A stretch of DNA of 64,000 nt from assembly GCA_001804315.1 (NCBI GenBank), contig MHFT01000024.1, positions 13,610 to 77,609 on the forward strand, given 5' to 3'. Position 1 is the stretch's first letter. Every line of letters starts with the position of its first letter. Position numbers and translations under genes: made by a program. This DNA is from Omnitrophica bacterium RIFCSPLOWO2_12_FULL_50_11. GTDB taxonomy: Bacteria; Omnitrophota; Omnitrophia; Omnitrophales; Danuiimicrobiaceae. Of the stretch, positions 3,701 through 37,976 are shown piece by piece. The notes below the pieces were generated by a model. The model searched no databases, had not been told where the DNA came from, and was given only the letters and a program-made list of their open reading frames with translations.

Positions 3701-3859
3701 CTTAGGAACGCGGAAGCCGTGGCCTTGCTTTATGAATTGAGCGAAGGCGCGATTAAGCAAGTAGCGCGCAACCTATGGCAGATTTCCGGCACTCCTACTG
3801 TGCTCAATCTCATCCTCAATCTTTACCGGGCTGAAGTCCAAATTCAAGCTGCGGCCTAA
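752..3859 (+). CDS. Large secreted/membrane-anchored protein whose N-terminal domain is paralogous to the giant ORF N-terminus (ChaN/TIKI/TraB-superfamily-like GxxH motifs); C-terminal 500 aa unknown
   Basis: 1035-aa ORF with a hydrophobic N-terminus (ALITVSFFFTSGLNVYP). IVHIQNVHANYKAQ...IEGA and VVITGGFHKDPLVDEFRRQEVSYVVVSPGV align with VVYLQDAHSNLGAQ...VEGG and ILVTGGFHAPGITTEFRKHKIPYVLISPKF of the giant ORF. The two-motif N-terminal xAH plus C-terminal GGFH pattern is reminiscent of the ChaN/TraB/TIKI family (family assignment is inference). Confidence 0.6.
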   Translation: MTSVLIQRAALITVSFFFTSGLNVYPQRTSPAAETVAGVSGESNLAQIQKELVRPGTPLVRPDFNPYLITVPAEYGNIEEVYQGAPDAPLIVHIQNVHANYKAQLNIKNILDHLVGKHQFSLIQIEGAVAKVDPEILKPSYLEEANLKLADLLLREGRITGAHAFAIETDRPVELYGIEDFGLYTENLKIFKAIYAHREEVNAYFSNAHRMVNRIGRTLLTPGALDFTRKKESFSRDEIGLLDYLVYLNQVAERSGLTKLRDLKEMIRYPNLVRILRIHELEERLDRTELEKEGKRLRSEFSKKLPQAEAAQELLGRLEAREKGVRPRAYFVELTKLADQAGIDFVGYPQIRLFAESLIYQDEIDHRGVFPELKRYEADLEKALFKTEDEQAILEIISFVSLLEQFFRLEMSREKLAIYVQDRDKMKPSWIQTRLAGLAEEQSTAYTPLGAVEQLDAYMSELEDFYRLVLKRDEFFIEKILAKMNALGENKTVVITGGFHKDPLVDEFRRQEVSYVVVSPGVDITEGSENYVKVMLDEDSVAGTVFAGTFAVEVADLGIPGREDVLSNIFGAADLLQAHLAPTGVPEVEITNRSRERFRSLVQRSRVWYEPRKVERNDYAVRVRAEARFFNAKGEPILHEVESRFDRSDLRFTVRTVRERKISPAELRNIGITEPPMPEPIRRDALTALSRETLRVDRGVPTAQRSQLTPAELSTSENFPVGTFVSPNVPVVPEVEARLLERLFSLTALATKGVVDQLRSGGVLTLEGVERASRETGLAGPITPTDIQNIAQLSEGEKRLFMALDGTAPQAPLFLVLPVDTVNQSHASRAALLSLVGRIRANDRTAAAVYGVNVKNFALSLGISADEFDRIFFVDQDKGIELSTFEGAVDLVAAHVQSKHGLWLNHWLESVPGATRMSIDQFMNHLAILVPAGEIGNRLSETTAQRWQEALQVIELDLSEPGIVRDQELQRAVGDFLVKVLVNLRNAEAVALLYELSEGAIKQVARNLWQISGTPTVLNLILNLYRAEVQIQAAA

Positions 3860-6534: not shown

Positions 6535-6656
6535 TGCAAGCAAGAACCGTCATTGCGAGGCAGCAATCCAAGCGATGCCGAAGCAATCTCGAAGTTGTGA
6601 GATTGCTTCGTCGGCGCTGCGCGCCTCCTCGCAATGACGGCGGCTTTTGTAAAGGC

Positions 6657-14321: not shown

Positions 14322-14563
14322 CGTTCTTCGTTCCGCATCTGAGACACCGTTTGAGACAGCCCGGCACCTCTGACTTTAATCTTGGAAATTGGCCGCTTCC
14401 AGCCTGGGTGGGCTAGGTTCTCATTATGGGGAATCAAATCTGCAACTGGCGTACGCCGTTCCAGGATCACGATCCTCTCGCCCCGTTTGACCGCCTTAAT
14501 ATAACTGGAAAAACCGCGGGTCAACTGTCTAATCGTCACTTGAGTCATGTTCAAATCCTCCAA
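14318..14563 (-). CDS. Phd/YefM-family antitoxin paired with the PIN toxin
   Basis: MTQVTIRQLTRGFSSYIKAVKRGERIVILERRTPVADLIP is a typical Phd/YefM N-terminus, with tight translational coupling to vapC. Confidence 0.65.
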   Translation of the reverse strand: MEDLNMTQVTIRQLTRGFSSYIKAVKRGERIVILERRTPVADLIPHNENLAHPGWKRPISKIKVRGAGLSQTVSQMRNEER

Positions 14564-14729: not shown

Positions 14730-14758
14730 TTGAAAATGAACTTTTTTTAATGTATAAT
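14730..14758 (+). promoter_or_regulatory. Near-consensus sigma-70 promoter TTGAAA-17-TATAAT driving the giant ORF
   Basis: TTGAAA at 14730-14735, a 17-nt spacer, TATAAT at 14753-14758, and GGGAGG at 14784-14789 eight nt before the GTG start at 14798. Confidence 0.5.
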
Positions 14759-14797: not shown

Positions 14798-17700
14798 GTG
14801 GAAGCCAGCTTAAAAGGCCAGGTTTTACCACATAACGCTCGGTGCTTTAGAAAGTCATTTTGGAGAGCGACGGCTTGCGTCGTCTTATTTTCTTTCGCGA
14901 CTACAACTGTCGCTTGGTCCGATCCTGGCTTTGGTTCACTCGACCCCTCTTCCTCTTATTCATCTTTTGCACAACACTCCCTCATTAACCCATTGAGAAA
15001 TATTGATCTCCCAGAGCGTCTTGGGAAGATCGACGAACTGTTCCTCCCAGAGAGAGTCTCTCCCGATTCTCCGTTCGTCGTCTACCTCCAAGACGCTCAC
15101 TCTAACCTCGGGGCTCAGCGCCGCATTGCGGAGGTGGCGCGCGAGCTGAGCGACAAGCTCCAAATCGAGGCCATCCTTGTTGAAGGCGGCACAGGCGAAG
15201 CCGATCTTGCGGATCTAAGATCGTTTCCGGATCAAGAAGTTAAAGAGCGCGCAACCGAATTTTGGCTCAAAGAGGCGATGCTCAGTGGAATTGAACGGGA
15301 AGCGATTGTCGGTCCAAAAGTCTACCGCTTCTTTGGCGTGGAGGACGAAGCACTTTACGAAGCAGGGGGGCGTAATTTTATTGAGGCACAAACCCGCTCG
15401 CAGCCCTTTTTGACTTCGCTCAAACCGCTGGTTCAAGAAAACGGCGAAAATAGGAGGCAATACCTTAACAAGAAGCTCTACGAGTTCGAAGAACGGGTCT
15501 CTCAGTTTGAGGAAAAGAACGAACTGATTGCCCTTGTCAGTTTTCTTGCGAGTAAAGCGCGTAACCTTCACATCAACCGCTGGAAATATCTCGAAATCGA
15601 AAAGTTAATCGACCTCATTCTGCTTGAAATGGAGGGGGGAAATAGTGAGCGCTTTTTCGAAATTCAAGAAATGCTCGATTCAAGAAAACTTTTCCGCGAG
15701 TTGGATTCCTTGAAGTCGGAAGTTAAGGAACGGTTGTTTCAAACGGACGCCGAGCGCGCCATTGACGAAGAGCACCAAGCGCTAAAAGCGTTGCAAGCGA
15801 TCGTATCACTTAAAGCAACCCCCGACGATTTTGATTATTTCCGCAAGCGCCGCGAATTGATCAAGAAGTATGCGCAGAGGGCAAAATTAGATTCCGAAGC
15901 GCTTGCGTCTGCCGAGGCCTTTTACCGATCTGCGCAGGAACGCGATCGGAAAATATTCGAAAATATCCAGGCGATTCTCGGCGAAAACGGAATCAAACGC
16001 GCGATTTTAGTGACCGGTGGCTTCCACGCTCCCGGAATCACAACCGAATTCCGTAAGCACAAAATTCCATACGTTCTGATCTCGCCCAAATTTTCTGACG
16101 AGGACAATTACTCGAACTATCTCGCACGCGTTTCCGGCAAACGTGCGAGTCTCGACGAATTCAAATCGAAGCATTCTAACCGTCATCTGGAAGGAAGCCT
16201 TAACGGAGTCGTCATCCTGAGGCAACGATCCAAAGAGGTGCCGAAGGATCCCGGTCGGGATTCGTCTTCCAAGGAGCCTGCCCTGAGGACGGGATCCTTC
16301 GGGCCTTCGGCCCTCAGGATGACGTCCGAAAGAGGGCTTCCCAATGACGGCGCATCTCATTCCCACGCCGCGGCGCACGCTGTTTTCAACCGCGCCGAAC
16401 TCCGCGTCATTCGTGAGTCATTTGAGTGGTTAAGAGAGGGTGTAAGTTCGGCCGAGAGTGCCACTTCTCCTCAGACAGGTTTACGACGCGCCGAAACGCG
16501 AACAGAAAAACCAAAACTTCGATTTACTTTGCGAAGTTTAATCTTTTGGGTGATTTGCTATGCCTTAATGTTAGCGTTTATCAAAGCGGTTTTTGGCGAG
16601 GTAGAGTGGGGAGAAGCGCTAGGAGTAATGTTAGGTGTAGGTGTATTGGCTAGGCTTTTTCACTTAGAGTATGTGGATCTATTCGACCTGACTGAAGGGG
16701 CTGGCATTGAAAAGTCAATTGACCGCAGATTCGGATTGAAAAGGGAATCACGCGATCTCGATCCGAAAAAGGACGGAGCGGAAAGCGGTCGTGACCCAGA
16801 GGAACCACCGTCCGAAAACGCGGATCCGGACCGCCGCGCAGAGATGCGTAGAGAAATTCAGGTGGAGGCTACAACGGCGGAAGATGGACGGAAAAGCGGC
16901 GACATCGCAGGCGCGGTCGATTCTCTTCCACCTTCCACCCTCCAGCTTCCAGTTTCTTATCGCCAAGCGGAAGTGCGGGCAGAAAGGAACGCCGAAGACG
17001 GAAACAAGGAGCGGAATCAGATTCCGATTTTGGATTCGAGACAGGCCACTCGTTTGGAAAGACCGGGAAGAGCGACGCGAACGGCACTTTCAACTCCCGA
17101 TAGACGGTTTTCGACAAAGAAGAGGCGATCTTCTACCGCAGAGAGACGTTCTTCTACTGCTGAGAAACGGTTGGGAAGGGGCCCAACGCCCTCCACAACA
17201 GCACGAAACTGGCCTCGAAGATCTTCGATCAATGTCCCTACTTCTGTGACGGTATATGAATCAGCCCTTTTTTTTGGCTTGGTAGGATTACCTTTGCTCA
17301 TTTCAAATCTCCTTGAGGATCATTTTGTGGGAACGGAAGGAATGGAAAGCACTGTATCAAGGCTGCCACAAGATGTCAAGGCGCCTTTTCAAAAATCGCA
17401 CCGCGCTGAAATCCGAAGTCGATCCGGCAGGGAGGACGGTTCGGAAATCAAAGCGACAAGCTCAGAGGAAGGACAAAACATCCGATCCGTCCGTTCGGAT
17501 AAAATGCAATGGCTTACAGTTAGCATTTTGCTTCCAGCCGTCACATTGGGCTTAGGGATCGGGGCAACTTTTCTGACCAAACGTTTCGAATCGCTTCCCG
17601 TTTCGATTTTATTCGTGAGGGGGATGCAATATATTTTGGGCACATTCGCAGACATAGGAATGAGTGCTGCTGCGAATTATGTTGGTCAGTGGCGTAAATT

Positions 17701-20700
17701 TAGGAGTAAGGCCAGCTGGGCGAGGGCAGTCCGTTTTGGCTTAATTATCCAAGTCGGTTTCTCGATCTGGTTTTTCGTCAAGCCGCGGCTTAGGATTCGA
17801 CTGGACCACTACGGGTCTGTCATGATGGTTGCTGCCGATACGGTGATTAGTTTGTTTACCCATCGTTTGTTGCTTCATTTGCTATATAGATCCGAGAGGT
17901 TATCTAAAGACGAGATTCGCGAAAAGATGAAAAACACATTTTGGCCTTCTTATGGGATGTTGGCGGGCGTGTGGGGCATTTTCAATTTAGGCATTTATGC
18001 TATTCCAAAAGATTGGGCCTTCGTTATTCCTATTATTTCATCGGTCGTGGCTTTTGTGAACAAAGTTATTTTGTCAGCTTATCTATATCGATCATCTTCC
18101 CGGACACTGATGATGAAGTTTGGGGGGACTTTCGGCTTGGTAGCTCCGATCATAAGCTTTGTTGCGATGGGTTCAGTCATCGGGCTTGACTTTTCATTTC
18201 GGCACGTGATTTTTGGGGGATTGAGTGGATGGTTAGTCGGAAGTGCGTTCGTTTACTTTGCAAAAAAATACTGGGGCTCAATCCAAACTGAAGGTGACGC
18301 GCTTCAAACGGGACCGGCATCTACAGGCAATGTCAATGATTTCCGGCCTGAGGTGCGGGGCAATGAGAAATTGAGTCGCACGCGGTGGGTCCGGCCATCT
18401 TGGATTGATTCGACCAGCTTGTTTTCACCGGCGGAAAGAAAACTCATTCGGGAACGCGGTCAATTGCTCAAGTTCGTGTACCCGCGCTTGAGCGAGAATG
18501 CGAAAAAAGTATTACTTTACCCTTCCTTCTTGCCCGTCTTTATGGGCGTCAAGCCGGCGTACCTGCGTATTACAGACCTTATTACTGGCCGCAAAGAACC
18601 GGATCCTATGATCCTTGCGAGAGAATTGAAAGATATTCCCAAGGCTTGGGATCAACTTGGGATAACGTTCAACGACATCAGAGCGATGTTAGTATTCGAT
18701 GTTTTTGATCAACTCAAGGCGCACATGAAACTTTTAAAAGACTTTGGTGTCCTGCCGCGCTATCCAAACGTCGACCTGATGAGCGAAGAGTGGAAAAGCT
18801 ATCAACCGAGCAAGTGGCAGGCGTTATCGGAAGAATTGGAATTGTTCATTGACGACTTAGACGACAATGTTGAGGTTAGTCAGAGTGCTGGGCATGTTCT
18901 TAACGGCATTGTCTTAGGTTATCCGGTGGCGGAAGTTCAGGCTCTAGGCGAATACATAACGGGCTTTTCGGTGAGTGTAACGCGGCTGTCGACAGAGTTT
19001 GAAGGCATTGAGCTCTTCGTTCGACTAGGAGAAAAGGGAGAAATTGCAGACGAAACGCATCGCTATCTCGCGCGGATGACCGATGCGCTTTATTATGCCT
19101 ATTCACTCCTACAGGAAAATGAGGACTTCGCGAGCATAGCTCAGGAACTCAACCTTCCCCCTAGAGTTCTTTCAGCCGAAGCTCCTGAGTCGATTGTCAG
19201 CCGTGGCGAACTTAGGCAAAGCGATTTTTTCAGGTCTGAGGTGCGGGGAAAAGAAAACGCTCAAGATTTACAATTGTATATTCGGCGTGCTCGCCATCCA
19301 GAGGTTCAAAGCGGAGAAACGAGTGATCAGGCGCCGGATTCTGCCGCCGTCAGCCTGTTGCCAATACCGCGAATTTCTTCTTTGAGCTCAGACCGCGTTT
19401 CTCCAAGTTCAGTCCGAGTATCACGGAGGTCCTTGGAGAGTTTTGACACGGCGTCTTCAAGGCGAGATGCTTTACCGTTGAGGACGTTGATTCGGAGTTC
19501 GATCGTATCTAGCCTTCGGCTGTTGCCGTGGACAGTTACCTCGAGCCGTTCCATCCTCGTATCGAGACCTGACTGGCCCTCAGCGAGGGTATCAAATTTC
19601 TTGTCCAATGCTTCCAGAAGTGTGCCCACTTCCGTGACTGAATATGAATCAGCCATTTTCTTTGGCTTGGTAGGATTACCTTTGCTCATTTCAAATCTCC
19701 TTGAGGATCAATTTGTGGGAACGGCAGGAATGGAAAGCAAGGTATCAGAGCGGCCACAAGATGTCAAGGTGCCTTTTGATGCCGGGCGCAAGACCGGAAT
19801 TGCGAACCCCAAAATCTTCTCCTCTCCCCTGTCGGGGGAGAGGATTTCCGCCAAAGGACGCGGCGGATCCGCCGCGCTGTATGGCGGAAAGGTGAGGGGG
19901 ACGAGTGAAAATAACTTGAACATCCACCCTCACCCAACCCTCTCCCTCCAATGGAGAGAGAGGGGAAAAGACTACAGCTACGGTCTTGTGACTTTTGATG
20001 CCGCCCGGCGTGCGGAGACCCGCGATCGAGTGCGGAATCCGGAGTTCAGGGTGCGGAGTGGACTTAAGTTCGGGAGTTCGCCCGTTCCGCACTCCGCACT
20101 CCGCATTTCCAACTCAAATCGGCGGGCCGAAGCGCGGGCAGAGAGCGATGGAGATCAACTTGTCAAACGATTCACAAGGTTAAGGGGGATGAATCTTTTG
20201 AGAGCTTTACCTGAATTAAACGGCGCGGTTCGACGGAAAGATTTGCCGGCTCGCACTTTGGAGAAGCTGAAAGAACAGCGCCGGATTAGGTATGTTCCTT
20301 ATGTACGCGGAGCGCTCAAAAGGCTCGCACGGAATTTAAGGAGCGAATTTCCAAAGGGGCGTGAGCTCATGAAAGCAGTTGCGGATGCATCAGGTGATCC
20401 TGAACTCTATGACCGTTCGGATGCCCTTCCGTTGCGAATTCTCCAGCAAATCGATCAACGAAAAGCGTGGGAGAGGGTGGCCTCTAACGACAACGTCGCA
20501 GAGCTTCTCCTCCGCGCGAAAGAAGCATTTGATCGGTATATGAGCACTGATGACGCATGGCTTTCAGAACATCTGCCTGAACTCAAGGATAAAAGGGCCG
20601 CCTACTTTTCGGCTGAATTTGCGGTTCCGCCGCTCCCGATATACACCGGCGGAATGGGGGTGCTGGCGGCTGATATCGTGGCGAGCGCGAGTGATCTGAG

Positions 20701-29700: not shown

Positions 29701-32700
29701 ACAGCTTTTCAAGCGTGAACCCACCATGGAGGAATTGGCCAAAGCGCTAGGGGAAGAGGAAAAAACGGTGATCCGCATCCTTTCCTTCTTCTCACGGGCA
29801 AAGTCCTTAGATGCCCCAGCAGGGAACGGTGAATTAAACCGCTATCAATTCCGCTCGGATCCAAAAGCGGAAACTCCGGAGGCGATCGCGGTTCGTGAGG
29901 AAGAACACCGCGAGATAGTCCCAGAGATTTCAAGAAGGCTAGCCCTTCTTTCCTCTTACCAGCAGCTCGTCATCAAACTGCGGTTTGGAATTGGCACGCA
30001 AAAAGAGGGCGGTTATACACTCGACGAGATTGGAACAATGCTGGGGGTCACAAGAGAGAACATCCGTCAGATCGAAGATCGTGCAATCAAAAATATGCGC
30101 AGCAACACTATTTCAGACGCCAAGACTCGTCCCGTATCCACTGAACATGGTGATGTTTACCTTGTGGAAGTCGTCGGCATAAAGCCGGATCATCCTGTTT
30201 TTGAGGACATGCGGCTCAAGCCACTTATCGAGATAAAAGAGCTTTACGAAAGGGGCTTTTTTGCCAATTTCATTCCGGCACAAAACTTGACGATGGGCAG
30301 GGTCAGAAATGTTAAGCCTCGTGTCGGCTACCGGAGACGCGTAGCGGCAACGGCCCGAGCAGCCGCTCACCGTGCTGAGGCGCGCAGTGGAAGCGTGAGG
30401 GAGTATGCGACGTGGGATCACTTCCATAGCTTGATTCATGTCCTCGCGATAGATAGCGAGGAAAAGAATCGGCTGGAAGCGTATAAGCGATTGAGAGAGC
30501 TAGCATTGTTTCAACCGTTCCACTTTGGCCTTGCTTTGGTGCGGCATGTCGGAGGTGAAATAGCTTCTTATGCTAAATCCATTTTGCTGGAGGTTGCGTG
30601 GGAAAACCCAGAGATCATGACTGGACCCATTGTGAGCTCACTTGAAGATCCGAGTCGGAATCCGCATGCTGAAGAACTTCTCGGCCAGTGGATTGACCTC
30701 ATCATCAAAAAGAAAGATCGAAACAAACTCAGTATTGTTGCCCGGCCTCTGATCGGCATCTTAGCTCTTGAGATAGCCCGCCCTGCTGCCGAAAGATTGA
30801 TTCAAAAAATTGCTCTTTTTGATCTCGGTGTAATTGTGAATCGATTCATGGGGGCACTCAAAGATCCCGCGAGGCGGGCGATCGTCGGGCACCTCCTTGT
30901 AGTCATTAGCCGTTATTCTGCTGGCGCAGCAAAGTTCGTCACCGAAACTGTCATTGAAAATCTTTATGACAATGAAATCGCCGAATACCTTATAGAAGTA
31001 CTTCTTGAGATTTCCAAGGATGCGGGCGAAAAGACGGTAAAACATATTTTGTGGTTATTAATGGATGTTTTGCATTTTGAGGATTACCTGAAGCGGGTTC
31101 GTTTTGTTCCGTTCAAGGAACGGCTAAGAGAAAATAAGGGAGATTTCCGTCGAAACGCAGCCGCGGTTTTATCGAGAATGCTGGTGACATATCCGGTCGA
31201 AACAGTGCACATTGTAGTCGGCCATGCTTTGAATCATGACGTCCGGCAGTACGCCGACGAAATCCTCGCTGAAATCGAGGATAAACAACCCCAGATTCTT
31301 ACTGATTCCTATGTGGCAGCTCAGGGCCGAATGAGTCCAAATGAATTTGTGGAAAGCGAGTTGATTCGTCTCGCTGCATCACATCGAGGGCCTATCCTCA
31401 ACTCGCTCATCAAATCGCTTAAGAGACAATCAAAAGCTCCGGCCTTAGTTTCGCTTCTGATAAAGATGGCGCGGTCTAACTCTGAGCTTTCAGGTTTCAT
31501 TCAAGAGCGCCTCAAGTCTGCGATGTCTGAGGTGCCGACGCATCGGAACCTCGATCGCTTCGGTCAACAAATTCTTGCCCAAATCCAGTCCCGCAATGAA
31601 GTGCGATTGGGATTAAATTTGGCCAAGGAGAGAAAAGTACTGCTCTCGGGAAATGCCAGCCGTGCGGAGGTTATTCAAAATGATGAAAACGGGCACAGCC
31701 CGATATTGAGGAATGACGATCGGACGGCTGACGCCAGGCTTGATGTAAACAAGGTGGTCGCCAGTTTGACGCACACGCCGAAAACCGGCCAATTCGAAGA
31801 CTCGACAAAGGTTTTGATACGGAATCGGAGTGATGCGGCTCATGGAGCAGGAGACGATTTAGAAAGTGACTTCGCTATGCTCGGTAGCAATAAGAGGAGG
31901 AGAAGTCCATTCGGTTCCAGCCGGATCTCGGGCAATGAAACCTTCTTCTTGAAGAATGTCCTTGAGCGTTCCCATTCTGGAACTTTCCTCAAGGAACAGC
32001 CGAACCGCTTCCATAAGCCTGCGCCGCGCATCGTCCACCGTATCTCCGCAGCTGGCAACGGACAATTCTGGGCAGACACTGACAAACGTCGGCCCCTCTC
32101 TAAAAATCAAGGAAGTGAATTCAATCTTTCTCATGGCATTCAAACTATAACACAGAACCGGGATGCCGTAAAGCAGCCCTCTTACCGCTCTGCAGTGCGT
32201 GAAAAATTCAGGGGAGAGGCGAGAGAGGAGAGGGAAGAGAAAAAGCGCTTACCTCTTACCGCTTCTCTCTCGCCTCTCACCACTCACCTCTCCCCTGATT
32301 CTTCCCGCCCCGCGGCACGCAAACGAGTGCGAAGCGGACATGAACTCGAAGACTCGATCATTCCGCATTCCAGACTTCCCAATCCGCACTCGGAAACACC
32401 GGCTGACGCGCGGGATCTCGTAGTTGCGCATGACGAATTGCCAGTGACGAAAGGTAGAAGACCTTGGCAGTACGAACGCGCGGATCTAAGGCACCGAGCG
32501 CGCTCTAGAGGTGTGAGTGCTTTTCGCGGCGGCGGCCCTGCCAATCGAGAAAGACAATTCCGAGAATTATTACAAGCAGGATCACAGCAAGAAACACAAC
32601 ATTCGCTGTTGCTCCATCCATTTTTGTTTCCTCTCGTCAGGATTGATCCAGAGAATGAAGGCAAAAGCAACAAGATAAATTATAACCCCGGCCACCAGAA

Positions 32701-35700
32701 GAAACAAGACAGGTCCGACTTGTTGGGCGCATCCGACTTCATACAGTTGTCATCGCGAGGCCAGCATCCCAAGAATGGGCTGAAGCAATACGATGCCTCC
32801 GTCATTACGAGGAAGCGTAGGGGCAATGACGAAGTAATCTCGGATGCGAGATTACTTCGTCATCCCTTGGGGTTGCTTCCTCGCAATGACGGTCAGGATG
32901 CAATTGCTTCGTCAACGCCTGGTCCGCTGCCTCGCGATAACGTTGGCATTGCTGCATCGAGCGGGATACGCGCCGCGGTGCAGAGTGGACAGGAACTGGA
33001 AGACTTGATCATTCCGCATTCCGCACTCCCCATTCCGCACTTGGAAACACGGCCTGAGGTGCGGAGCGGGGACAAATCACGAGGGGATGCGAGCGCTCCT
33101 CCTGACCGTGTCAAACAATGGGAAGAGAATATCGGTGCCGTGAAAAGGATGTTGAGCAAGTTTTTTCAGGAAGGCAATGACCTAAATTATGCCTTGCTTT
33201 TGTTTGGAAACATCCTCGTGAACGATCCCGTTAGAATCGATTACATGGAGAAATTGATGAATGCTTTGAAGAAACAAAAGGGGCCTCGTAGAGACAAAAA
33301 CGCAAGACACGGCGTAGAGCTTACGCCTGACGATCTTAGAGATTTGCTCGATTGGGTAATCGGAGACGTCGCCTATTTAAGCTCTCCGCCTAATAGGAAG
33401 GACGACGGACCTGTTATGTGGATGTGGGTTCCATACAGAGACCTACCCGAAGAACTCATAACCGAAATTGTGAAATATCGAACGCCTAAAAAGAATTTTG
33501 ATGATGCGGCTGACGCATGGAGAGCATATCAGGCGCAGGGTGATAAGAAGCTAATCGGATTTAAGTCATTCTATGATAAGCACTTTAAAAAAAGAGGGGC
33601 GATGGCGTCTGGCGATCAGGCTTTTGATTCGTATTCGTTTCATTTTTTACCTACGAGAAAGCATGATGATTTGAAACTAGGGATTGACACTGACTGGGCC
33701 GGCAGAGGATTGGGCAGAGGATTGGTTGCGTTCAGGGACGTACCTCGAGGTCGAAAACTTGTTGTAAATCGGCTCCGGCAATCTGAACAGGTTTATGGAA
33801 TGTCTCAACATTTGTTTTACATTGAATTAGAGCACGTCAAAAATCGGCTTATTGTTCACACCCACCAACACGGCGGTAGTCGGACGAGTCAATTGAGGAC
33901 TTCCGATCGTGAGTTGTATGATTACTTGAAACATGTACCGGATAAAGCCTTCGCTTTGTTAATAGACCGACTGGATGAGGTACTTGCAGCTTTAGGATGG
34001 TCGGCAGCCGATCAAATCCAGGATTTTGAGATTGTCTCAGCCAGCAAGGTCGCTTATGAATGGTCCACGGTCTCGGCCTCAACGGTTATGACAGCTTATA
34101 TGGATTTTCCACAGCGCCTTGGATTTCATATGGTAGAACGTAAGCCCAATGAGATCCGGAATGCGCCAGGCGACCAAGCCATGTGGAGAGAAAGCGTGTG
34201 GTACTGGAGCCGGCCGCTTGCGGATATGAAGAAACCTCCGAAAGTTCAGATCGAGACGCCGTCTTCTTTCCGTCCGGAAGTGAGAATCCTGGAGACGCGG
34301 GCTGAGGTGCGGGAAACAAAAGTAAGAAGCACGAAGCTGGAAGCAGGAGCGCAAAAGTCTCTCGCTTCAGGCCTCGCGTTTCACGCCGGCGGCAAAGCCG
34401 CCTCCCGCTCTGAAATGCGGATAAATCCGAGGAGCACTGAGGAATTGCGCGAACAGTTGATGACTCTTGTAAGGGAGATCGTCATTCTGCTTGATCTTCT
34501 CACGGTAGATCCCCGTCGGGAGAACCGGAAGGAACTTGAAACCGAGATTACGGAGCTGAGAAGGCAGCTCAGTGAACAAAAAGAGTTTGTGAACGAAGAT
34601 CAACATCAAATCTTTGACAAGCTTGTGGGAGAAGTTAAATCGCTCATTGATTTAGTATCGGCTTCCAAGCTGCCTCTTTCTACTCAATTGATACGAGAAC
34701 ATACTCAGCGTATTTACAGTAACATCCAAGAGCTGGAATTTAAGCCTACGGGGGAACAAAAAGATGCAATAAGTGCGGAAACAGAACGCTTCGAGCTCGC
34801 GAAGTTGATTAGAGCTAAGGATGTCGAGGGTATTGCTGACATGCTTTCGAGAAGCGACGAGGTGCCAATAAAGGTAGATGCGATCAGGGCACTGGGTCTA
34901 TTGAAGGCCAGTCAATATGCAGATTTGATCGTTCCATACTTAACCTTTTTCACACCACCCTTCGGCGAGGGTGTGCGGCTGACTGCAATTACTGCATTAA
35001 GAAATTTAAATGCAAAACAATATCTAACTGAGATTGCGAAGAAATTCACAGATCCCACACTAAGCGTTCGCAGTAGGGCAGCCGGAGTGATTGGGGCATT
35101 CGGGGATCCAACATACATCCCCCAACTGAAGGAACTATTGAATGACAAATCCGCCGCGGTGCGGCTTGCAGCGGCAAAAGCTTTGCAGAAATTCGGAGTG
35201 GACATTCCTGAAGAATACCGCTCCGAAGCGCGGAGCAATGATGATGTCTTTATGAGGATCGCAGCTTCTTTGCCAGAGGAGTGGCGGGAAAAAATTCAAG
35301 CAGTGCAGACAAAACCAGCTAACAGGGATGTTTTCCCCTCGTGGATACAAGCGCTGAATGAAGCGGAAGCGACGCGCCTACACTCCATTCTAACGGATCG
35401 CGTGCCAGTAGATGTAATTGAGTCCTTTTTCCTGAACAGCCCGCACTTTCTTGCAAGCGATCCCGATCAGCGTCATCAAGTGGCAGTTTCGATTGCAGAG
35501 ACGCTAGAGGATGTACGTCGGCTTTTAAGATCTTGGATTGAAGAGCTGGATCGCGACCCGCATGCGCGACGTCCTGCAGCGATCCCTGCGCGCCAGATGA
35601 CCACCCCTGCTGAGACAAGAGGTGTCCGGCCGCAAGAAGAACGAGAAGAGTGGGTATCAGAGGAGGAAGCTGCCAGACGCGCGCGCTTCATTGAGTGGGC

Positions 35701-37675
35701 TCGAGATGAAATGGGCATAGAGGCGACCAATTATGACGAGCTTGTCCGTGCGATGACGGAACGTTTCAGCTATGTTGTTCACGTGAATGCAGCTAGCATT
35801 GCGCGTACGCTTCCTCCACGCACGAGTTGGAACGACTTTGAGGATTTGGAGATCGCGGGCGTTTTGGGTCTGATCGATGCACTTGGCAAATACGATCCTG
35901 CTCGAGGCGTTCAGTTCGACTCGTATGCAAAGCATAGAGTAAGGGGAGCTATCTTGGATGAATTGAGAAAAATAGATCCTGAAAAGAGAGAAGTGAGGGA
36001 GCTTGCAAACGCTCTTCAAGAGGAGGGACGAACTCGTTCCACATCAGAAGAAGTGGTGGGGTCCTATGATGTCACACGCGCTGCCGTGTTAAGGGCTCTG
36101 CAAGTTGCTCGCGGCGGAGACATATCACTAGATAAAAAATTGTTTGAGACGGATACTGGAAAGAGCGTCACGATAAAGGATAGGCTTCTAAGCAACAGTC
36201 CGACTGGAGATTTTGTAGCAGAGCAGCGCGACTTAATCGAATATGTGATGCGGCCGTTGAGCCCCCGGGAGAAAGCGATATTGATTTTATATTACCACGG
36301 GAATTTGCCGATGAAGCAGGTCGGAGAAATTTTGGGTGTTAGCGAATCACGAATCTCTCAGATATTGAAAGATCTTCCTAAGCGGATAAAAGAACGAATG
36401 CATGAGTTTTTTGAGAGAGGAACTCTTATGCGGCTAGACACATTCGCGGCAAGAAGTCGATATGCGAGGCTAGCTACCGGCCTTCGTCGCAGGGACGTTA
36501 CGCAACAGCTCTACAGGAACGTCGAGAAAGGCTTGATGAGGCCGAGAGAGGAAACGTTCGTAAAATTAGCAGATGCTTATGGCGTTAGCATACAGTGGCT
36601 GAAGACCGGCCACAACATTCCTCCCTTTTTGAGTCCGGAGCATTTGGAAGTTGGTGCCAAAGCAATTGTGGCGATTGAAGAAGAAAGAATAAGAATGGCG
36701 CTTCCGATCGGCATCTTGGCGCACGAGGCAAAGGTATCTCGTCGCGCCTACCTATTTTACGTAGCGGGTAAAGTGATTCCGACCTCTGACGTCCTAAGCC
36801 GCCTTAGGAGTGCTCTTGAGACAGCAAAACCTGGCGGCAAGTATCCGACTCGAGAATCTGTCTTGGAGGGACTAGCAGCACGTGAGGCAAAGAAGTGGCC
36901 AAGTCATGTTAGGGCGCTCCAGATTGGTGAACATAAAGATGCGGCACTTCTGTATGCGGCCAGAAAATTTGGAATTGAACTACCTCGGCCGCCGAGAACT
37001 GGCGAACATCCGAAGGCAGAAAAAAGCCGCTCCAAAGACTCCAAGAAACCTCGTTCTGAAACGAGGGTCATTCCCACTTTCTCCAGCTTGCCGGAAGCTG
37101 AGCCACAATCGGCAGTCGAAACCGAAAATCGTTTGATCGTGACGCTTGGGGAACTTCGAATAAGCGGCGAGCTGCGGGCGAAATTGAAAGAAGCAATTCA
37201 GGTGAATCAAGCCAACCCAACGTTTATCCTGGTGATTGTCGATACGGAATTTAGACACGAGCTTCTAGCTGAGCGAGAGCTTTTTGGGCTTTTTGGGAGG
37301 GATTTCTTTATTCGTTATCCCGTGGAGCTTCACGGACGGGAGAGTCTTAAAATTTCGACCGAAATGTCGCCGTGGGTGGTACTCAATCGCGCGATTGGTG
37401 CGGCGCGTAAAGAAGTCGGTCTTAATGGTTCTTTCTTTTCACCCCAAGTGATTGCGTCGGGGAGCCACGATGTTCTCTCTCGTCTCGGCCGGCGTGATAC
37501 GCCACTCCTTGTAGCCGAACCGCTCCTATTCGATTTGGCGCGCCGCCTATTCGACCTTAAAGATGCTCAGGCGTGGTTCCGCCAGGCAGCTGGCCCCGAG
37601 GGAATTCTCCATCCGTGGGCGGAACACCTGCGTACGTTAATGCTGACTCGACAAGCGCAGGTCGCCGCTGCATAA
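14798..37675 (+). CDS. Giant mosaic ORF (7625 aa, 22.9 kb, stop-free). Order of parts: signal peptide, ChaN/TIKI-like domain, TM segments, GT35 alpha-glucan phosphorylase, 5x HTH_XRE, sigma-70 module, ARM/HEAT-like helical regions, FliA-like sigma module, HTH_XRE
   Basis: A single frame is open for 22,878 nt with many recognisable domains in that frame (listed as separate features); GTG start with GGAGG and a consensus promoter. It also contains in-frame palindromic repeats and nested antisense genes (see findings). Whether it is translated as one polypeptide is unknown. Confidence 0.75.
   Translation: [7625 protein letters not shown]
14990..16140 (+). other. N-terminal ChaN/TIKI/TraB-like domain of the giant ORF (paralogous to the 752..3859 protein)
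   Basis: [38 protein letters not shown] ... [31 protein letters not shown], preceded by a signal-like [15 protein letters not shown]. Confidence 0.4.
16211..16324. repeat. Palindromic family-A repeat (GTCATCCTGAGG ... GAAGGATC ... CCTCAGGATGAC) inserted in-frame in the giant ORF
   Basis: Same family as intergenic copies at 7975-8110, 43025-43100, 47908-48017, 50560-50935, 62118-62215 and 62922-63012. Confidence 0.7.
17017..17301 (-). CDS. Small coiled-coil protein gene nested antisense in the giant ORF (copy 1 of a duplicated module)
   Basis: On the minus strand, TTGACA-17-TACAGT then AAGGAGATTTGAA-ATG; MSKGNPTKPKKRADSYTVTEVGTLIEDL... followed by heptad repeats (LSAVEERLSAVEDRLFFVENRLSGVES). 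Confidence 0.5.
   Translation of the reverse strand: MSKGNPTKPKKRADSYTVTEVGTLIEDLRGQFRAVVEGVGPLPNRFSAVEERLSAVEDRLFFVENRLSGVESAVRVALPGLSKRVACLESKIGI
17500..18280 (+). other. Polytopic transmembrane region of the giant ORF (about 8 predicted helices); an additional helix pair lies at 16500-16690
   Basis: Hydrophobic runs [111 protein letters not shown]. Confidence 0.5.
19327..19689 (-). CDS. Paralogous small coiled-coil protein gene nested antisense in the giant ORF (copy 2)
   Basis: Same conserved promoter/RBS/N-terminus (MSKGNPTKPKKMADSYSVTEVGTLLEAL...) on a duplicated approximately 168-nt segment (19625..19792 versus 17225..17392); diverged coiled-coil body of 120 aa. Confidence 0.5.
   Translation of the reverse strand: MSKGNPTKPKKMADSYSVTEVGTLLEALDKKFDTLAEGQSGLDTRMERLEVTVHGNSRRLDTIELRINVLNGKASRLEDAVSKLSKDLRDTRTELGETRSELKEEIRGIGNRLTAAESGA
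19815..19970. repeat. Family-D repeat (TTTCCGCCAAA..GGCGGATCCGCC..TATGGCGGAA with flanking G/C-rich palindromes) in-frame in the giant ORF
   Basis: A homologous intergenic copy lies at 39150-39370. Confidence 0.6.
20190..22560 (+). other. glgP: Complete alpha-glucan (glycogen/maltodextrin) phosphorylase module, GT35, embedded in the giant ORF
   Basis: [51 protein letters not shown] (GT35 N-terminal hallmark); [37 protein letters not shown]; PLP-lysine motif [14 protein letters not shown] with the Lys retained. An internal AAGGGGG-ATG sits at about 20195 at the module start. Confidence 0.8.
27775..28890 (+). other. Tandem array of five HTH_XRE (Cro/C1-type) DNA-binding domains inside the giant ORF
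   Basis: Five roughly 80-aa repeats of the pattern (L/M)[20 protein letters not shown]...LGLKxKxxRYxxGWTxxxLAxExGxxxxTxxxWExG...KLAExLxTTVSxLLxG. Confidence 0.65.
29112..29252. repeat. Family-C composite palindromic element (CTGAGGTGCGG direct repeats flanking a tgcggaatgcggaattcgg / ccgcattccgc hairpin) in-frame in the giant ORF
   Basis: Near-identical copies at 20000-20140, 27296-27440, 32336-32425 (half) and 32975-33070, each translated as ...[44 protein letters not shown].... Confidence 0.7.
29330..30110 (+). other. Complete sigma-70 family sigma factor module (regions 1.2, 2, 3 and 4) embedded in the giant ORF
   Basis: [17 protein letters not shown]..., region 2 [33 protein letters not shown] (compare [33 protein letters not shown]), region 3 [21 protein letters not shown], region 4 [30 protein letters not shown]. 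Confidence 0.75.
31613..31843 (-). CDS. hicA: HicA-family mRNA interferase toxin nested antisense inside the giant ORF
   Basis: YQNLCRVFELAGFRRVRQTGDHLVYIKPGVSRPIVIPQYRAVPVFIILNNLRTAGISREQYFSLL is a YcfA/HicA dsRBD-like toxin with the catalytic His in the G(D/S)H motif; 76 aa. Confidence 0.7.
   Translation of the reverse strand: MSRITPIPYQNLCRVFELAGFRRVRQTGDHLVYIKPGVSRPIVIPQYRAVPVFIILNNLRTAGISREQYFSLLGQI
31859..32143 (-). CDS. hicB: HicB-family antitoxin (UPF0150 fold) nested antisense inside the giant ORF
   Basis: FTSLIFREGPTFVSVCPELSVASCGDTVDDARRRLMEAVRLFLEE matches the HicB N-terminal domain signature (partial RNase-H-like fold, GxTxEEA motif region). Lies 15 nt upstream of hicA on the same strand. 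Confidence 0.65.
   Translation of the reverse strand: MNAMRKIEFTSLIFREGPTFVSVCPELSVASCGDTVDDARRRLMEAVRLFLEESSRMGTLKDILQEEGFIARDPAGTEWTSPPLIATEHSEVTF
32747..32892. repeat. Palindromic family-B repeat (GTCAT(T/C)GCGAGG ... GAAGCAATCTCG/CGAGATTGCTTC ... CCTCGCAATGAC) in-frame in the giant ORF
   Basis: Same family at 6545-6640, 61378-61570 and 62625-62772. Translated copies give ...ARQQSKRCRSNLEVVRLLRR... / ...[13 protein letters not shown]... peptides. Confidence 0.7.
34840..35210 (+). other. HEAT/PBS-lyase-type repeats in the giant ORF
   Basis: Repeated approximately 30-aa units [23 protein letters not shown] / [75 protein letters not shown]. Confidence 0.55.
35700..36410 (+). other. Complete FliA/sigma-28-like sigma factor module embedded in the giant ORF, followed at about 36440-36620 by another HTH_XRE domain
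   Basis: [45 protein letters not shown] (compare FliA LLQAGGIGLLNAVERYDALQGTAFTTYAVQRIRGAMLDELRSRD) and region 4 [48 protein letters not shown]; then [44 protein letters not shown]. Confidence 0.75.
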
Positions 37676-37688: not shown

Positions 37689-37976
37689 TTGGAGATTCTC
37701 ATCAACGAACTCACTGTGAGTGAGGCAAGGCAAAGGTTCTTTGAACTTGTGAAGAAAGCGGTCAGAGATCATTTGCCGATTCAAATTACTTCAAAATCTG
37801 GCGAAGCGGTTCTCATATCAAAAGAGGATTACGATAGTTTGCTCGAGACGCTCGAACTGTTTTCGACGCGGGGTATGTTGAGGAGTATTAGTCCGGTTTT
37901 CTCATCAATTTGGCGGATTGATGAGAAAACCGCTTTGGACGCACGAAGTTGCGTCCAAAGTTTTGCGCCCCTGTAA
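37689..37976 (+). CDS. Phd/YefM-family antitoxin (orphan; no toxin gene recognisable downstream)
   Basis: TTG start; LTVSEARQRFFELVKKAVRDHLPIQITSKSGEAVLISKEDYDSLLETLEL is a canonical YefM/Phd N-terminal domain. The C-terminal tail of the ORF runs into a palindromic repeat, so the true stop may be functionally earlier. Confidence 0.6.
   Translation: MEILINELTVSEARQRFFELVKKAVRDHLPIQITSKSGEAVLISKEDYDSLLETLELFSTRGMLRSISPVFSSIWRIDEKTALDARSCVQSFAPL

What the first reader, a model, noticed from the sequence alone, without database searches (positions are those of the whole stretch)
14798..37675. Stop-free 22.9 kb giant ORF fusing secreted, membrane, metabolic-enzyme and transcription-factor modules
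A single frame is open for 7625 codons. Chance is excluded: at about 3 stops per 64 codons the expectation is roughly 350 stops. Recognisable full-length modules of unrelated cellular compartments sit in that same frame. They are a Sec signal peptide plus a ChaN/TIKI-like domain (normally periplasmic), about 10 TM helices, a complete GT35 alpha-glucan phosphorylase with its PLP lysine, five XRE HTH domains, a complete sigma-70 module, HEAT repeats and a complete FliA-like sigma module. The ORF has its own near-consensus promoter and ribosome-binding site. This is either an extraordinary polyprotein or giant scaffold, as reported for giant genes of some uncultivated predatory/symbiotic lineages, or a locus where selection maintains an open frame across formerly separate genes. 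I know of no described protein that carries two complete sigma factors and a glycogen phosphorylase in one chain.
Basis: partly seen in the sequence, partly recalled or inferred. Interest (0 to 1): 0.92.

Follow-up and report, generated by a model that had tools for sequence, protein, structure and literature searches.

The report
Bacterial polyprotein-like giant gene with junction motif
A real 22.9-kb gene of an uncultivated Omnitrophota bacterium strings about 17 unrelated proteins and stretches of junk into one reading frame, separated by a conserved five-residue tag that looks like a cutting site, so it gives the first concrete, testable cleavage points for this phylum's puzzling giant genes.

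Summary
The 7,625-codon stop-free ORF (14798-37675, +) is real and is reproduced in three other metagenome assemblies. A related species has an orthologous, syntenic, stop-free ORF of 4,646 codons. The source is Omnitrophica bacterium RIFCSPLOWO2_12_FULL_50_11. Giant ORFs, including multi-enzyme ones, are already described for this phylum, so the bare observation is a new member of a known kind.

What appears new:
- About 17 protein-like modules evolve under purifying selection. About 1,190 codons of spacer evolve neutrally yet stay open. The spacers include REP-like hairpins and two conserved antisense genes.
- The peptide motif R-[A/S/P]-E-x-R marks the boundaries: 24 copies against 0.4 expected, none inside a recognised domain. 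R, E and R are invariant at seven orthologous junctions, with only synonymous codon changes.
- The N-terminal domain is a TIKI/erythromycin-esterase-fold hydrolase. It heads thousands of long ORFs, and other clades carry other recurrent motifs (A-x-S-L-G, RTSP).

Best reading: a cellular polyprotein cut at these motifs, possibly by its own leader domain. Cleavage itself is inferred, not shown.

The parts
14730..14758 (+). Sigma-70-type promoter TTGAAA-17-TATAAT of the giant ORF
   Evidence: 11 of 12 matches, the best plus-strand match in 14.4-38.4 kb. The region is conserved in the ortholog (homology block starts at 14727).
14798..37675 (+). Giant ORF: 7,625 codons, GTG start, TAA stop
   Evidence: Reproduced in independent assemblies.
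14798..16405 (+). M1: N-terminal hydrophobic helix (aa 12-40), a TIKI/Ere/ChaN/TraB-fold hydrolase domain (core aa 65-445) and a disordered tail ending at the first motif
16406..16849 (+). M2: small module with two TM-like segments
16850..17416 (+). M3: spacer (low coding potential) overlapping antisense gene 1
17017..17301 (-). Antisense gene 1: 94-aa coiled-coil protein with its own promoter-like site, SD and ATG
17417..18358 (+). M4: polytopic membrane module (about 5 TM-like segments)
18359..19246 (+). M5: soluble orphan module. It is conserved in the ortholog but sits at a different position there.
   Evidence: (dN/dS 0.16).
19247..20137 (+). M6: spacer with antisense gene 2, a palindrome at 19845-19890 and a hairpin cassette at 20003-20140
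19327..19689 (-). Antisense gene 2: 120 aa, paralog of gene 1, conserved in the related species
   Evidence: It is 44% identical to gene 1. The ortholog is 88% identical, with dN/dS 0.12 in the antisense frame. Third codon positions coincide with those of the giant frame.
20138..22963 (+). M7: complete GT35 alpha-glucan phosphorylase (DUF3417 type) with a C-terminal extension
22964..25435 (+). M8 and M9: orphan soluble modules
   Evidence: No homologs found and no Pfam match. Coding potential is positive.
25436..26698 (+). M10 (TM anchor plus HEAT-like), M11 (short, uncertain) and M12 (two TM-like segments)
   Evidence: M12 is conserved in the ortholog.
26699..27316 (+). M13: orphan module, conserved in the ortholog
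   Evidence: M12-13 dN/dS 0.41.
27317..27433 (+). M14: 39-codon motif-hairpin-motif cassette
   Evidence: -66.6 kcal/mol, z -4.4.
27434..29131 (+). M15: sigma-like N-terminal region plus five XRE-type HTH repeats
29132..29248 (+). M16: second motif-hairpin-motif cassette
29249..30385 (+). M17: sigma-70 family module (regions 2, 3, 4)
30386..31606 (+). M18: HEAT/ARM-like orphan module
31607..33064 (+). M19: 486-codon spacer with a REP-like palindromic element (32746-32892), other hairpins and two cassette copies
   Evidence: dN/dS is 0.89.
33065..34285 (+). M20: orphan module conserved in the ortholog
   Evidence: (dN/dS 0.30).
34286..35233 (+). M21 (45-codon spacer carrying an internal motif and ending in another, directly after the motif that closes M20) and M22 (coiled coil plus HEAT repeats)
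35234..37066 (+). M23: FliA/WhiG-like sigma module plus two HTH-like repeats seen by eye
   Evidence: for the sigma regions. The two C-terminal HTH-like repeats were read by eye in the translation and were not scored.
37067..37675 (+). M24: conserved C-terminal domain ending ...AAA, then the stop codon
   Evidence: It is 77% identical in the ortholog with dN/dS 0.12. It sits at the extreme C-terminus of four relatives. A terminal AA is enriched in the family.
16391..37066 (+). 24 strict copies of the junction motif R-[ASP]-E-[VMLTAI]-R. First bases are at 16391, 16487, 16835, 17402, 18344, 19232, 20009, 20123, 22949, 25421, 25991, 26270, 26684, 27302, 27419, 29117, 29234, 30371, 33050, 34271, 34298, 34406, 35219, 37052.
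752..3859 (+). Paralogous basic-form family member (1,035 aa): an M1-like domain, one RAEAR at aa 624, and a C-terminal part ending ...QAAA
   Evidence: (E 3e-16).

Best explanation
The ORF is a genuine gene that is translated end to end. It belongs to an Omnitrophota bacterium and works as a cellular polyprotein.

Proposed mechanism. One promoter and one start codon drive a chain of about 0.85 MDa. The chain begins with a signal or anchor helix and a TIKI-fold hydrolase domain (M1) and ends with a conserved C-terminal domain (M24). In between it carries about 15 self-contained protein units: a glycogen phosphorylase, two sigma factors, HTH regulators, membrane proteins, HEAT proteins and orphans. 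It also carries about 1,190 codons of functionless spacer. The spacer derives from intergenic-type DNA and is tolerated as long as it stays in frame and stop-free. Units and spacers are delimited by the peptide motif R-[A/S/P]-E-x-R. I infer that this motif is a site-specific proteolytic cleavage site that releases the units and discards the spacers. The leader domain M1 is the best candidate for the protease.

Shown here:
- the ORF is real and reproducible;
- modules are under purifying selection in this frame;
- spacers evolve neutrally but are kept open;
- the motif is conserved at peptide level at orthologous boundaries;
- M1 has the fold and the catalytic-type residues;
- the family is large, with clade-specific motifs.

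Inferred:
- cleavage at the motif;
- M1 as the enzyme;
- the cellular compartment where processing happens.
For: (1) Reality of the ORF. There are 0 stops against 237-408 in the other frames. Three other assemblies reproduce it. The orthologous, syntenic ORF of 4,646 codons is also stop-free, and it is identical in ENA and Logan assemblies.

(2) Translation in this frame. dN/dS is 0.11 for M1, 0.12 for M24, 0.16 for M5, 0.30 for M20 and 0.41 for M12-13. Ordinary neighbouring genes give 0.04-0.10.

(3) Spacers are neutral but kept open. The M19 stretch has dN/dS 0.89. There are 0 stops in 1,188 spacer codons (P about 4e-17). All 11 interspecies indels are multiples of 3. An intergenic copy of the REP-like element has an in-frame TAG and TGA. 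The in-ORF copy has AAG and a 2-nt deletion at those positions.

(4) The motif.
- There are 24 strict copies against 0.41 expected (maximum 4 in 2,000 shuffles).
- This is about 30 times the density in the window's other ORFs.
- It is confined to the ORF's frame.
- No copy lies inside a recognised domain (P 6e-4).
- It brackets every spacer.
- At seven orthologous junctions R, E and R are invariant while positions 2 and 4 vary.
- 14 of the 21 R/E/R codons differ between species, all synonymously.

(5) No sign of separate expression. There is no excess of internal promoters or terminators. Module starts show no systematic SD plus ATG.

(7) Generality.
- The M1 profile finds 8,541 representative proteins. 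In the 150 best hits listed, the domain starts within the first ~100 residues, on proteins of up to 7,376 aa.
- Ten other long members are enriched for R-x-E-x-R, 13 for A-x-S-L-G and one for RTSP.
- The motif classes are mutually exclusive and cluster on the M1 tree.
- Cargo in relatives is again unrelated cytoplasmic enzymes.
- Module content and order differ between orthologs while M1 and M24 stay about 75% identical.
Against: - No direct evidence of cleavage exists (no proteomics, no biochemistry).
- M1 carries an N-terminal signal or anchor. This predicts an extracytoplasmic location, whereas the sigma factors, HTH regulators and phosphorylase are cytoplasmic-type proteins.
- TIKI-fold enzymes include esterases and a haem-binding protein, so M1 need not be a peptidase.
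- Arg codons in the motif are biased to CGN (43 of 48 against 68% overall). About eight copies lie in DNA-level repeat cassettes, so the copies are not all independent.
- About half of the long family members examined (40 of 65) show no obvious motif.
- Only one diverged ortholog was available for the selection tests.
Confidence: 0.55

Rival explanations
1. Uncleaved giant multi-domain protein. The chain stays in one piece as a membrane-anchored scaffold. R-x-E-x-R is then a linker feature, such as a docking site for a partner, a modification site or a structural hinge, rather than a cleavage site.
For: - Omnitrophota giant ORFs are usually discussed as single membrane-associated proteins.
- The ORF has a signal or anchor and about 11 TM-like segments.
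- HEAT scaffolding modules are present.
- There is no evidence of cleavage.
Against: - About 1,190 codons evolve neutrally, or are the antisense of other genes, and would be carried as dead weight.
- Several modules look like complete free-standing proteins. One example is M10, which has its own N-terminal-type anchor directly after a motif. The full-length phosphorylase and the sigma factors are others.
- Sigma factors must bind RNA polymerase.
- Module order and content differ between orthologs.
Confidence: 0.2
2. The motif is primarily a DNA or RNA-level junction. It would be the core of a repeated cassette (direct repeats flanking a hairpin) that mediates in-frame recombination or insertion of modules. 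The peptide would then be incidental.
For: - Motif-hairpin-motif cassettes of about 132 nt recur four to five times.
- There is a CGN and GAGGTG codon bias.
- Module order is shuffled between species.
- Positions 2 and 4 are homogenised within a lineage, for example R[AS]ELR in all 8 strict copies in P0333.
Against: - The motif occurs only in the ORF's frame.
- At orthologous junctions 14 of 21 R/E/R codons changed, all synonymously.
- Most copies lie outside the DNA repeats and use different codons.
- No recombinase is present in the window.
- A recombination role could coexist with a peptide role.
Confidence: 0.1
3. This is not one translation unit. It would be a run of separate genes that only appears fused, through assembly or sequencing error, recoding, or internal initiation with some non-standard termination.
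For: - The spacers look intergenic: REP-like elements and hairpins, with antisense genes that have their own promoter-like site and SD.
- One public scaffold splits the ORF.
Against: - The split is only a run of 10 N.
- Other assemblers and samples give the same open frame.
- The frame is open in two species at 64-83% DNA identity, and every indel is a multiple of 3.
- The genome uses TAA, TAG and TGA normally.
- There are no internal promoters, terminators or SD-plus-ATG starts above background.
Confidence: 0.05

Closest known systems
Giant ORFs of Omnitrophota, especially the 'multi-enzyme metabolic cluster' class (Seymour et al. 2023, PMC10066038; West-Roberts et al. 2023, bioRxiv 10.1101/2023.11.21.568195; Nielsen & Lui 2026, bioRxiv 10.64898/2026.06.07.730766)
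   Same: - Same phylum.
- The ORF is longer than 20 kb.
- It has a signal peptide plus TM helices.
- Many unrelated Pfam domains tile one chain, including sugar-metabolism enzymes and HEAT scaffolding.
- Pilus and secretion genes lie nearby: a Tad cluster at 54-64 kb.
- Sequences are poorly conserved and largely orphan.
   Different: - At 7,625 aa it falls below the 10-kaa threshold of the published catalogue.
- Those papers report no cleavage points. [quoted passage not shown]
- They report no junction motif, no TIKI-fold leader domain, no neutral spacers and no antisense genes.
- Sigma factors are not mentioned in either preprint.
Viral polyproteins (picorna-, poty-, nidoviruses) with site-specific proteases
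   Same: One ORF encodes many mature proteins. They are separated by a short consensus site that co-varies with the lineage's protease. A protease is encoded in the same chain. (Own knowledge.)
   Different: - This is a cellular chromosome rather than a virus.
- Large neutral spacers lie between units.
- The candidate protease has a TIKI fold, not a chymotrypsin or papain fold.
- Processing is not demonstrated.
MARTX toxins of Vibrio and relatives
   Same: They are very large bacterial proteins that carry arrays of unrelated effector domains released by autoprocessing. One MARTX effector, RRSP, has the same fold as M1 and is a sequence-specific endopeptidase (PMC6254334; PMC6315884).
   Different: - No RTX or glycine-rich repeats and no cysteine protease domain were found by Pfam.
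- The cargo here is housekeeping-type: phosphorylase, sigma factors and HTH regulators.
- The TIKI-fold domain is the N-terminal leader here, not a cargo effector.
TIKI / TraB / ChaN / erythromycin-esterase superfamily
   Different: - It is below threshold for every Pfam family of the superfamily, and the profile finds no PDB sequence match.
- It has a helical insertion of about 210 residues.
- It is fixed at the N-terminus of long multi-module ORFs.
Chromosomal integron cassette arrays
   Same: Hairpin-forming imperfect repeats of about 130 nt lie between gene-sized units. Most units share one orientation, and a few reverse-oriented small genes have their own promoters. Toxin-antitoxin genes lie nearby. 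(Own knowledge.)
   Different: There is no integrase in the window. The units are threaded by a single open frame, which integrons do not require.

Membership tests
Omnitrophota giant ORFs | Encoded in an Omnitrophota genome | tested here: met
   Exact-sequence matches of three window proteins to OGX06339/06352/06360 of Omnitrophica bacterium RIFCSPLOWO2_12_FULL_50_11.
Omnitrophota giant ORFs | A single ORF longer than 20 kb (criterion of PMC10066038) | tested here: met
   22,878 nt. It is below the 10,000-aa threshold of the 2026 catalogue.
Omnitrophota giant ORFs | Many distinct domains tiling one chain, with a signal peptide and/or TM helices | tested here: met
Proteolytically processed polyprotein | Several self-contained protein units in one ORF with a single initiation site | tested here: met
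   Full-length phosphorylase and two sigma modules. No internal promoters or SD-plus-ATG starts above background.
Proteolytically processed polyprotein | A short conserved peptide motif at unit boundaries | tested here: met
Proteolytically processed polyprotein | A cognate site-specific protease | tested here: inconclusive
   M1 has the TIKI fold and catalytic-type residues. Activity, specificity and compartment are unknown.
Proteolytically processed polyprotein | Mature products with termini at the sites | not testable with these tools
   Needs proteomics or N-terminomics.
TIKI/TraB/ChaN/Ere superfamily (M1) | The alpha/beta TIKI fold | tested here: met
TIKI/TraB/ChaN/Ere superfamily (M1) | Sequence-level match to a family model | tested here: not met
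   Erythro_esteras 16.3 bits and ChaN 13.1 bits, both below their cut-offs. None of the 22 members matches any superfamily model above its cut-off (2 weak ChaN hits, best E 0.045).
TIKI/TraB/ChaN/Ere superfamily (M1) | The 2His/2Glu catalytic constellation | tested here: inconclusive
   H101, E129 and H410 are invariant and D99 is nearly invariant. The His-Glu spacing of 28 residues equals that in Bcr135 and RRSP (PMC6254334). No residue-level superposition was possible.
GT35 alpha-glucan phosphorylase (M7) | Full-length family match and the PLP-binding lysine | tested here: met
   TIGR02094 at 516 bits against a cut-off of 191.7, covering profile positions 2-599 of 600. EASGTSGQK is present.
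Sigma-70 family (M17, M23) | Regions 2 and 4 (plus region 3 in M17) above Pfam cut-offs | tested here: met
FliA/WhiG subfamily (M23) | NCBIfam TIGR02479 above its cut-off | tested here: not met
   143.2 bits against 189.6. It is FliA-like, but membership is not established.
MARTX toxin | RTX-type repeats and a cysteine protease domain | tested here: not met
   No such Pfam hits at E of 0.01 or better over the whole protein.
Integron | An adjacent IntI-type tyrosine recombinase | tested here: not met
   None among the genes of the window.

The most novel reading that the evidence does not exclude
The chain is exported through its N-terminal signal and is processed outside the cytoplasm by the TIKI-fold leader protease. 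It would act as a MARTX-like multi-effector array delivered to the host or prey cell of this putative episymbiont. Under this reading the highly diverged sigma factors, XRE regulators, glycogen phosphorylase and, in relatives, sugar kinases, FBPase, HPr and DnaJ are effectors. They would reprogram host transcription and mobilise host carbon stores. This would also explain why cytoplasmic-type enzymes sit behind a signal peptide next to a Tad pilus cluster.
Probability: 0.12. Interest if true: 0.95.

Novelty: new variant of a known kind. Interest (0 to 1): 0.8.

Why it matters
Whether the giant proteins of Omnitrophota act as one chain or are cut into pieces is an explicitly open question. The field states that no cleavage points are known. 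This locus supplies candidates that can be tested directly:
- a five-residue peptide motif conserved at module boundaries across species;
- alternative motifs in sister clades;
- a candidate protease of a fold known to give sequence-specific endopeptidases.

If this is confirmed, several things follow.
- It would establish a polyprotein strategy in cellular organisms on a large scale, since thousands of ORFs share the leader domain.
- It would change how these genomes are annotated. One 'gene' hides a dozen or more proteins, including sigma factors and central-metabolism enzymes, which affects metabolic reconstructions and completeness or contamination estimates.
- It would show that excisable linkers can serve as safe sites for repeats and even antisense genes.
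- It would provide new protease and cleavage-site pairs for biotechnology.

Tried and rejected
Searches that gave nothing useful:
- Modules M8-M12 (aa 2720-4170) gave no homologs.
- Phosphorylase relatives are ordinary proteins of 710-860 aa. The closest (42% identical, Omnitrophota) is cut off by its contig ends.
- M17+M18 gave only generic RpoD hits, and M18 is an orphan.
- Scans of GTDB representative genomes and of JGI metagenomes with the distal half found nothing.
- No tRNA genes or Rfam families occur in the window.

Explanations rejected:
- Recoding, because all three stop codons are used elsewhere.
- An assembly artefact. The only break is a run of N at a palindrome.
- Internal promoters or terminators, and SD-plus-ATG at module starts. 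None exceeds background.
- The motif as a Shine-Dalgarno or start codon. GAGGTG occurs in only seven copies and position 4 is often a non-start codon.
- The motif as a natural C-terminus of ordinary proteins.
- Membership of the MARTX toxin or integron classes (see the membership tests).

Ideas that did not hold up:
- A resemblance between the C-terminus of the 1,035-aa paralog and M24 is not supported by BLAST. It is only 17% identical in the alignment.
- The M24 structure model had pLDDT 51, too poor for a fold search. M24 has no conserved catalytic-type residues.
- Strain-level contigs (L003-L011) are at least 99.9% identical, so they are useless for selection tests.
Full report
**1.

The window has an ORF at 14798..37675 (+) with a GTG start, 7,625 codons and a TAA stop. 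It has no in-frame stop, while the other five frames of the same DNA carry 237-408 stops.

- DUF3417 plus Phosphorylase. This is a full-length TIGR02094 match at 516 bits, with the PLP-lysine motif EASGTSGQK at aa 2470-2478.
- Four significant HTH_3 stretches. A fifth repeat is visible by eye.
- Two sigma-70 modules: regions 2, 3 and 4 in one, and regions 2 and 4 in the other.
- HEAT repeats.
- About 11 TM-like segments.

A TTGAAA-17-TATAAT promoter (11 of 12 matches) and a GGGAGG Shine-Dalgarno precede the start.

**2. It is not an artefact.**

The flanking genes place the window in Omnitrophica bacterium RIFCSPLOWO2_12_FULL_50_11, a Rifle aquifer MAG.
- An independent MEGAHIT assembly from another sample calls the same 7,625-aa gene. 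Over the part I could fetch it is collinear, with 12 substitutions and no indels.
- A third assembly holds an open fragment of at least 5,964 aa.
- A public scaffold that splits the ORF does so only because of 10 N at a palindrome, window 19859-19891.
- Ordinary genes in the window end in TAA (10), TGA (9) and TAG (7), so the genetic code is standard.

**3. Anatomy: modules, spacers and a boundary motif.**

Reading the translation, I noticed a recurring R-x-E-x-R.
- The strict form R-[ASP]-E-[VMLTAI]-R occurs 24 times, against 0.41 expected (maximum 4 in 2,000 shuffles).
- This is about 30 times its density in the other ORFs of the window.
- It is confined to the ORF's reading frame. The other five frames have 0-2 copies of the looser pattern.

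Splitting the chain at the motifs gives 24 segments.
- About 17 have positive coding potential and look like self-contained proteins.
- Seven (M3, M6, M11, M14, M16, M19, M21; 1,188 codons) have coding potential near zero.
- These spacers contain very stable hairpins, -55 to -75 kcal/mol (six of the seven folds have z -4 to -8, the 32927-33070 cassette only -1.4).
- They contain a ~132-nt motif-hairpin-motif cassette in four to five copies.
- They contain a REP-like palindromic element that also occurs in true intergenic regions at 61.4 kb, 62.7 kb and near 6.6 kb.

The spacers have 0 in-frame stops, against 26-59 in each other frame (P about 4e-17). At aligned positions the intergenic copy of the REP-like element has an in-frame TAG and TGA. 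The in-ORF copy has AAG and a 2-nt deletion at those positions.

None of the 24 motifs lies inside a recognised domain, although such domains cover 26.6% of the chain (P 6e-4).

**4. Antisense genes inside the ORF.**

Repeat D3 (17223-17389 and 19611-19777) turned out to be three things on the minus strand. It is a promoter-like site, a perfect SD and the first codons of two paralogous minus-strand genes.
- The genes are at 17017-17301 (94 aa) and 19327-19689 (120 aa).
- They are 44% identical over 96 aa, well beyond the DNA repeat.
- The second gene is intact in the related species (88% identical). Its dN/dS is 0.12 in the antisense frame.
- The giant frame crosses both genes in the register where third codon positions coincide. 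Only two or three dicodons per gene could create a stop in that register. Each has a preceding codon that avoids one.

**5. A diverged ortholog gives the selection tests.**

Word-indexed searches found no relatives of the orphan modules. The collection scans found nothing either.

I then noticed that the neighbouring 1,035-aa ORF (752-3859) is a paralog of the N-terminal module M1 (E 3e-16). I searched all 1.84 billion representative proteins with a profile of the two.

Among the hits, P0260 (4,646 aa) has these properties:
- Its M1 is 75% identical and its C-terminal M24 is 77% identical to the window's.
- Interior modules are 35-77% identical where shared. Some are in a different order, and many are absent or different.
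- Its locus (L013, identical in an independent Logan assembly) is syntenic. Phd/ParE, MqnA and peptidase M24 lie downstream.
- Its ORF is also stop-free.

In the giant frame, dN/dS is 0.11 (M1), 0.12 (M24), 0.16 (M5), 0.30 (M20) and 0.41 (M12-13). The alignable M19 spacer gives 0.89. Ordinary neighbouring genes give 0.04-0.10. All 11 indels inside the ORF are multiples of 3, including those in spacers.

So the modules are translated and constrained, and the spacers are translated but unconstrained.

**6. The motif is selected as a peptide.**

At seven orthologous junctions the motif is present in both species. R, E and R are invariant and positions 2 and 4 vary:
- RPEVR/RAEMR
- RAEVR/RSEAR (twice)
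- RPEVR/RAEAR
- RPEVR/RAEVR
- RAELR/RAEVR
- RAETR/RAEVR

The flanking linker sequence diverges. Of the 21 R/E/R codons, 14 differ between species, and every difference is synonymous.

This argues against a purely DNA-level signal. There is a caveat: a CGN bias and the repeated cassettes show that some copies share DNA ancestry.

**7. The leader domain.**

M1 has no Pfam family and no PDB sequence match.
- An AlphaFold model built on 22 family members is confident in the core.
- Active members of that superfamily use a 2His/2Glu site. RRSP is a sequence-specific endopeptidase and TIKI is a Wnt protease (PMC6254334).
- M1's conserved residues D99 (nearly invariant) and H101, E129 and H410 (invariant) fit this pattern. 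The His-to-Glu spacing of 28 residues is the same as in Bcr135 and RRSP.

**8. A large family with clade-specific motifs.**

The profile finds 8,541 representative proteins, 3,680 of them at E of 1e-30 or better. In the 150 best hits listed, the domain starts within the first ~100 residues. Lengths run from about 500 to 7,376 aa.
- 110 of the 140 members that start with Met have an N-terminal hydrophobic segment. Controls give 1 of 120 and 0 of 120.
- 40 of 149 end in Ala-Ala. Controls give 1 of 120 and 0 of 120.

Among 65 long members (counting the window's ORF):
- 11 are enriched for R-x-E-x-R;
- 13 are enriched for A-x-S-L-G, for example 10 copies against 0.3 expected;
- one is enriched for RTSP, with 9 copies against 0.03 expected;
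- 40 show no obvious motif.

The classes are mutually exclusive and cluster on the M1 tree. The motifs recur at protein-sized intervals in linker-like contexts.

Cargo elsewhere includes the following:
- DnaJ plus a sigma region;
- a PfkB kinase;
- a GlpX FBPase, which sits exactly within one motif-bounded unit;
- an APH kinase plus another GT35 phosphorylase;
- HPr.

Basic members of about 1,030 aa, close to the window's paralog, usually carry one RAExR shortly after the M1 domain.

**9. Interpretation.**

The simplest model that explains all of this is a polyprotein.
- There is one initiation, and translation runs through everything.
- Release of the units requires cutting at the boundary motif.
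- The spacers are discarded. That is why they can drift, absorb repeats and host antisense genes, provided they stay in frame and stop-free.
- A nonsense mutation anywhere would remove all downstream units, including the strongly conserved M24. This explains the selection against stops.

M1 is the leading candidate for the protease, for three reasons. It has the fold and residues of site-specific endopeptidases. In the family members examined it sits near the N-terminus. Its phylogeny tracks the motif class.

The main difficulty is topology. M1's signal or anchor predicts an extracytoplasmic domain, whereas the cargo is of cytoplasmic type. Either another protease does the cutting, or the anchor holds M1 where it can act. 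A third possibility is that the chain is exported and the units act outside the cell, perhaps in a host. That last reading is the most novel one I cannot exclude.

No internal promoters, terminators or SD-plus-ATG starts above background support separate expression.

**10. Relation to what is known.**

Giant ORFs over 20 kb are common in Omnitrophota (PMC10066038). A 'multi-enzyme metabolic cluster' class has been described.

West-Roberts et al. speculate about cleavage by C39 or S8 domains but note that no cleavage points are known. Neither preprint mentions a junction motif, a TIKI-like leader, sigma factors or antisense genes.

The bare finding is therefore a new, smaller member of a known kind. 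The following appear to be new and make the cleavage question testable:
- the boundary motif;
- the leader family;
- the neutral spacers;
- the module turnover between orthologs.

**11. Surroundings.**
- Upstream on the minus strand lie a PIN toxin and a Phd-type antitoxin, then IlvD and housekeeping genes.
- Downstream lie a Phd-like remnant, MqnA, peptidase M24, transketolase, DHFR/ThyA and a c-di-GMP signalling protein.
- A Tad pilus cluster lies at 54-64 kb.

Noticed in passing
window 17017-17301 (-) and 19327-19689 (-): Two paralogous small coiled-coil genes lie antisense inside the giant ORF. Each has a promoter-like site, an SD and an ATG. One is conserved in the related species (dN/dS 0.12). 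Both overlap the giant frame in the register where third codon positions coincide. Their function is unknown.
   Followed up: yes
window 32746-32892, 61386-61532, 62628-62781, about 6546-6644; also L013 15739-15793 and 17594-17648: A dispersed palindromic REP/MITE-like element of about 150 nt (core GTCATTGCGAGG...CCTCGCAATGACGG). It folds at -75 kcal/mol (z -8). One copy is embedded in frame in the giant ORF.
   Followed up: partly
window 752-3859 (+): A 1,035-aa orphan protein (OGX06339.1) is the basic form of the same family. It has an M1-like domain, a single RAEAR at aa 624 and a C-terminal part ending ...QAAA. About 20 close relatives of 1,000-1,080 aa exist.
   Followed up: partly
C-termini of family members (window 37664-37672; 3848-3856): Complete family members end in Ala or Ala-Ala: 40 of 149 end in AA, against 1 of 120 and 0 of 120 in controls. 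This resembles the C-terminal determinant of ssrA-type degrons or a secretion signal. Its meaning is unknown.
   Followed up: partly
P0305, P0398, P0395, P0325 and others; P0345 (proteins): Other clades of the family carry different recurrent short motifs at protein-sized intervals. A-x-S-L-G occurs in 5-10 copies against about 0.2 expected, and RTSP in 9 copies against 0.03 expected. About half of the long members examined show no obvious motif.
   Followed up: partly
M1 family (alignment A3): A domain family with 8,541 representative clusters has no Pfam model and no solved structure detectable by sequence.
   Followed up: partly
window 13908-14548 (-) and about 37690-37900 (+): Toxin-antitoxin genes flank the giant ORF. 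A PIN toxin and a Phd-type antitoxin lie upstream. A Phd-like ORF without its ParE partner lies downstream, whereas the ortholog locus L013 has an intact Phd/ParE pair.
   Followed up: partly
window 19845-19890: A perfect-stem palindrome inside spacer M6 (-31 kcal/mol) coincides with the scaffolding gap (10 N) in ENA scaffold_928, which made gene callers split the ORF there.
   Followed up: yes
window 37267-37645: All 12 substitutions between two assemblies fall in M24, ten of them within 37267-37359, and 7 are synonymous. Contig L004 breaks in the same zone with further variants. This suggests strain-level recombination or a variable patch in the C-terminal domain.
   Followed up: no
window 54091-63897 (-): A Tad (tight-adherence) pilus gene cluster: TadE/G-like, two T2SSF, a T2SSE ATPase, a ParA/TadZ-like protein, RcpC/CpaB and Tad_C. 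It lies 16 kb downstream of the giant ORF. A response-regulator-GAF-GGDEF-EAL protein is at 50986-53310.
   Followed up: no
window 32203-32303: A long purine/pyrimidine-rich inverted repeat (GGGGAGAGGCGAGAGAGGAGAGGG.../...CCTCTCACC...) inside spacer M19. It folds at -60 kcal/mol (z -6.6) and has no counterpart found elsewhere in the window.
   Followed up: no
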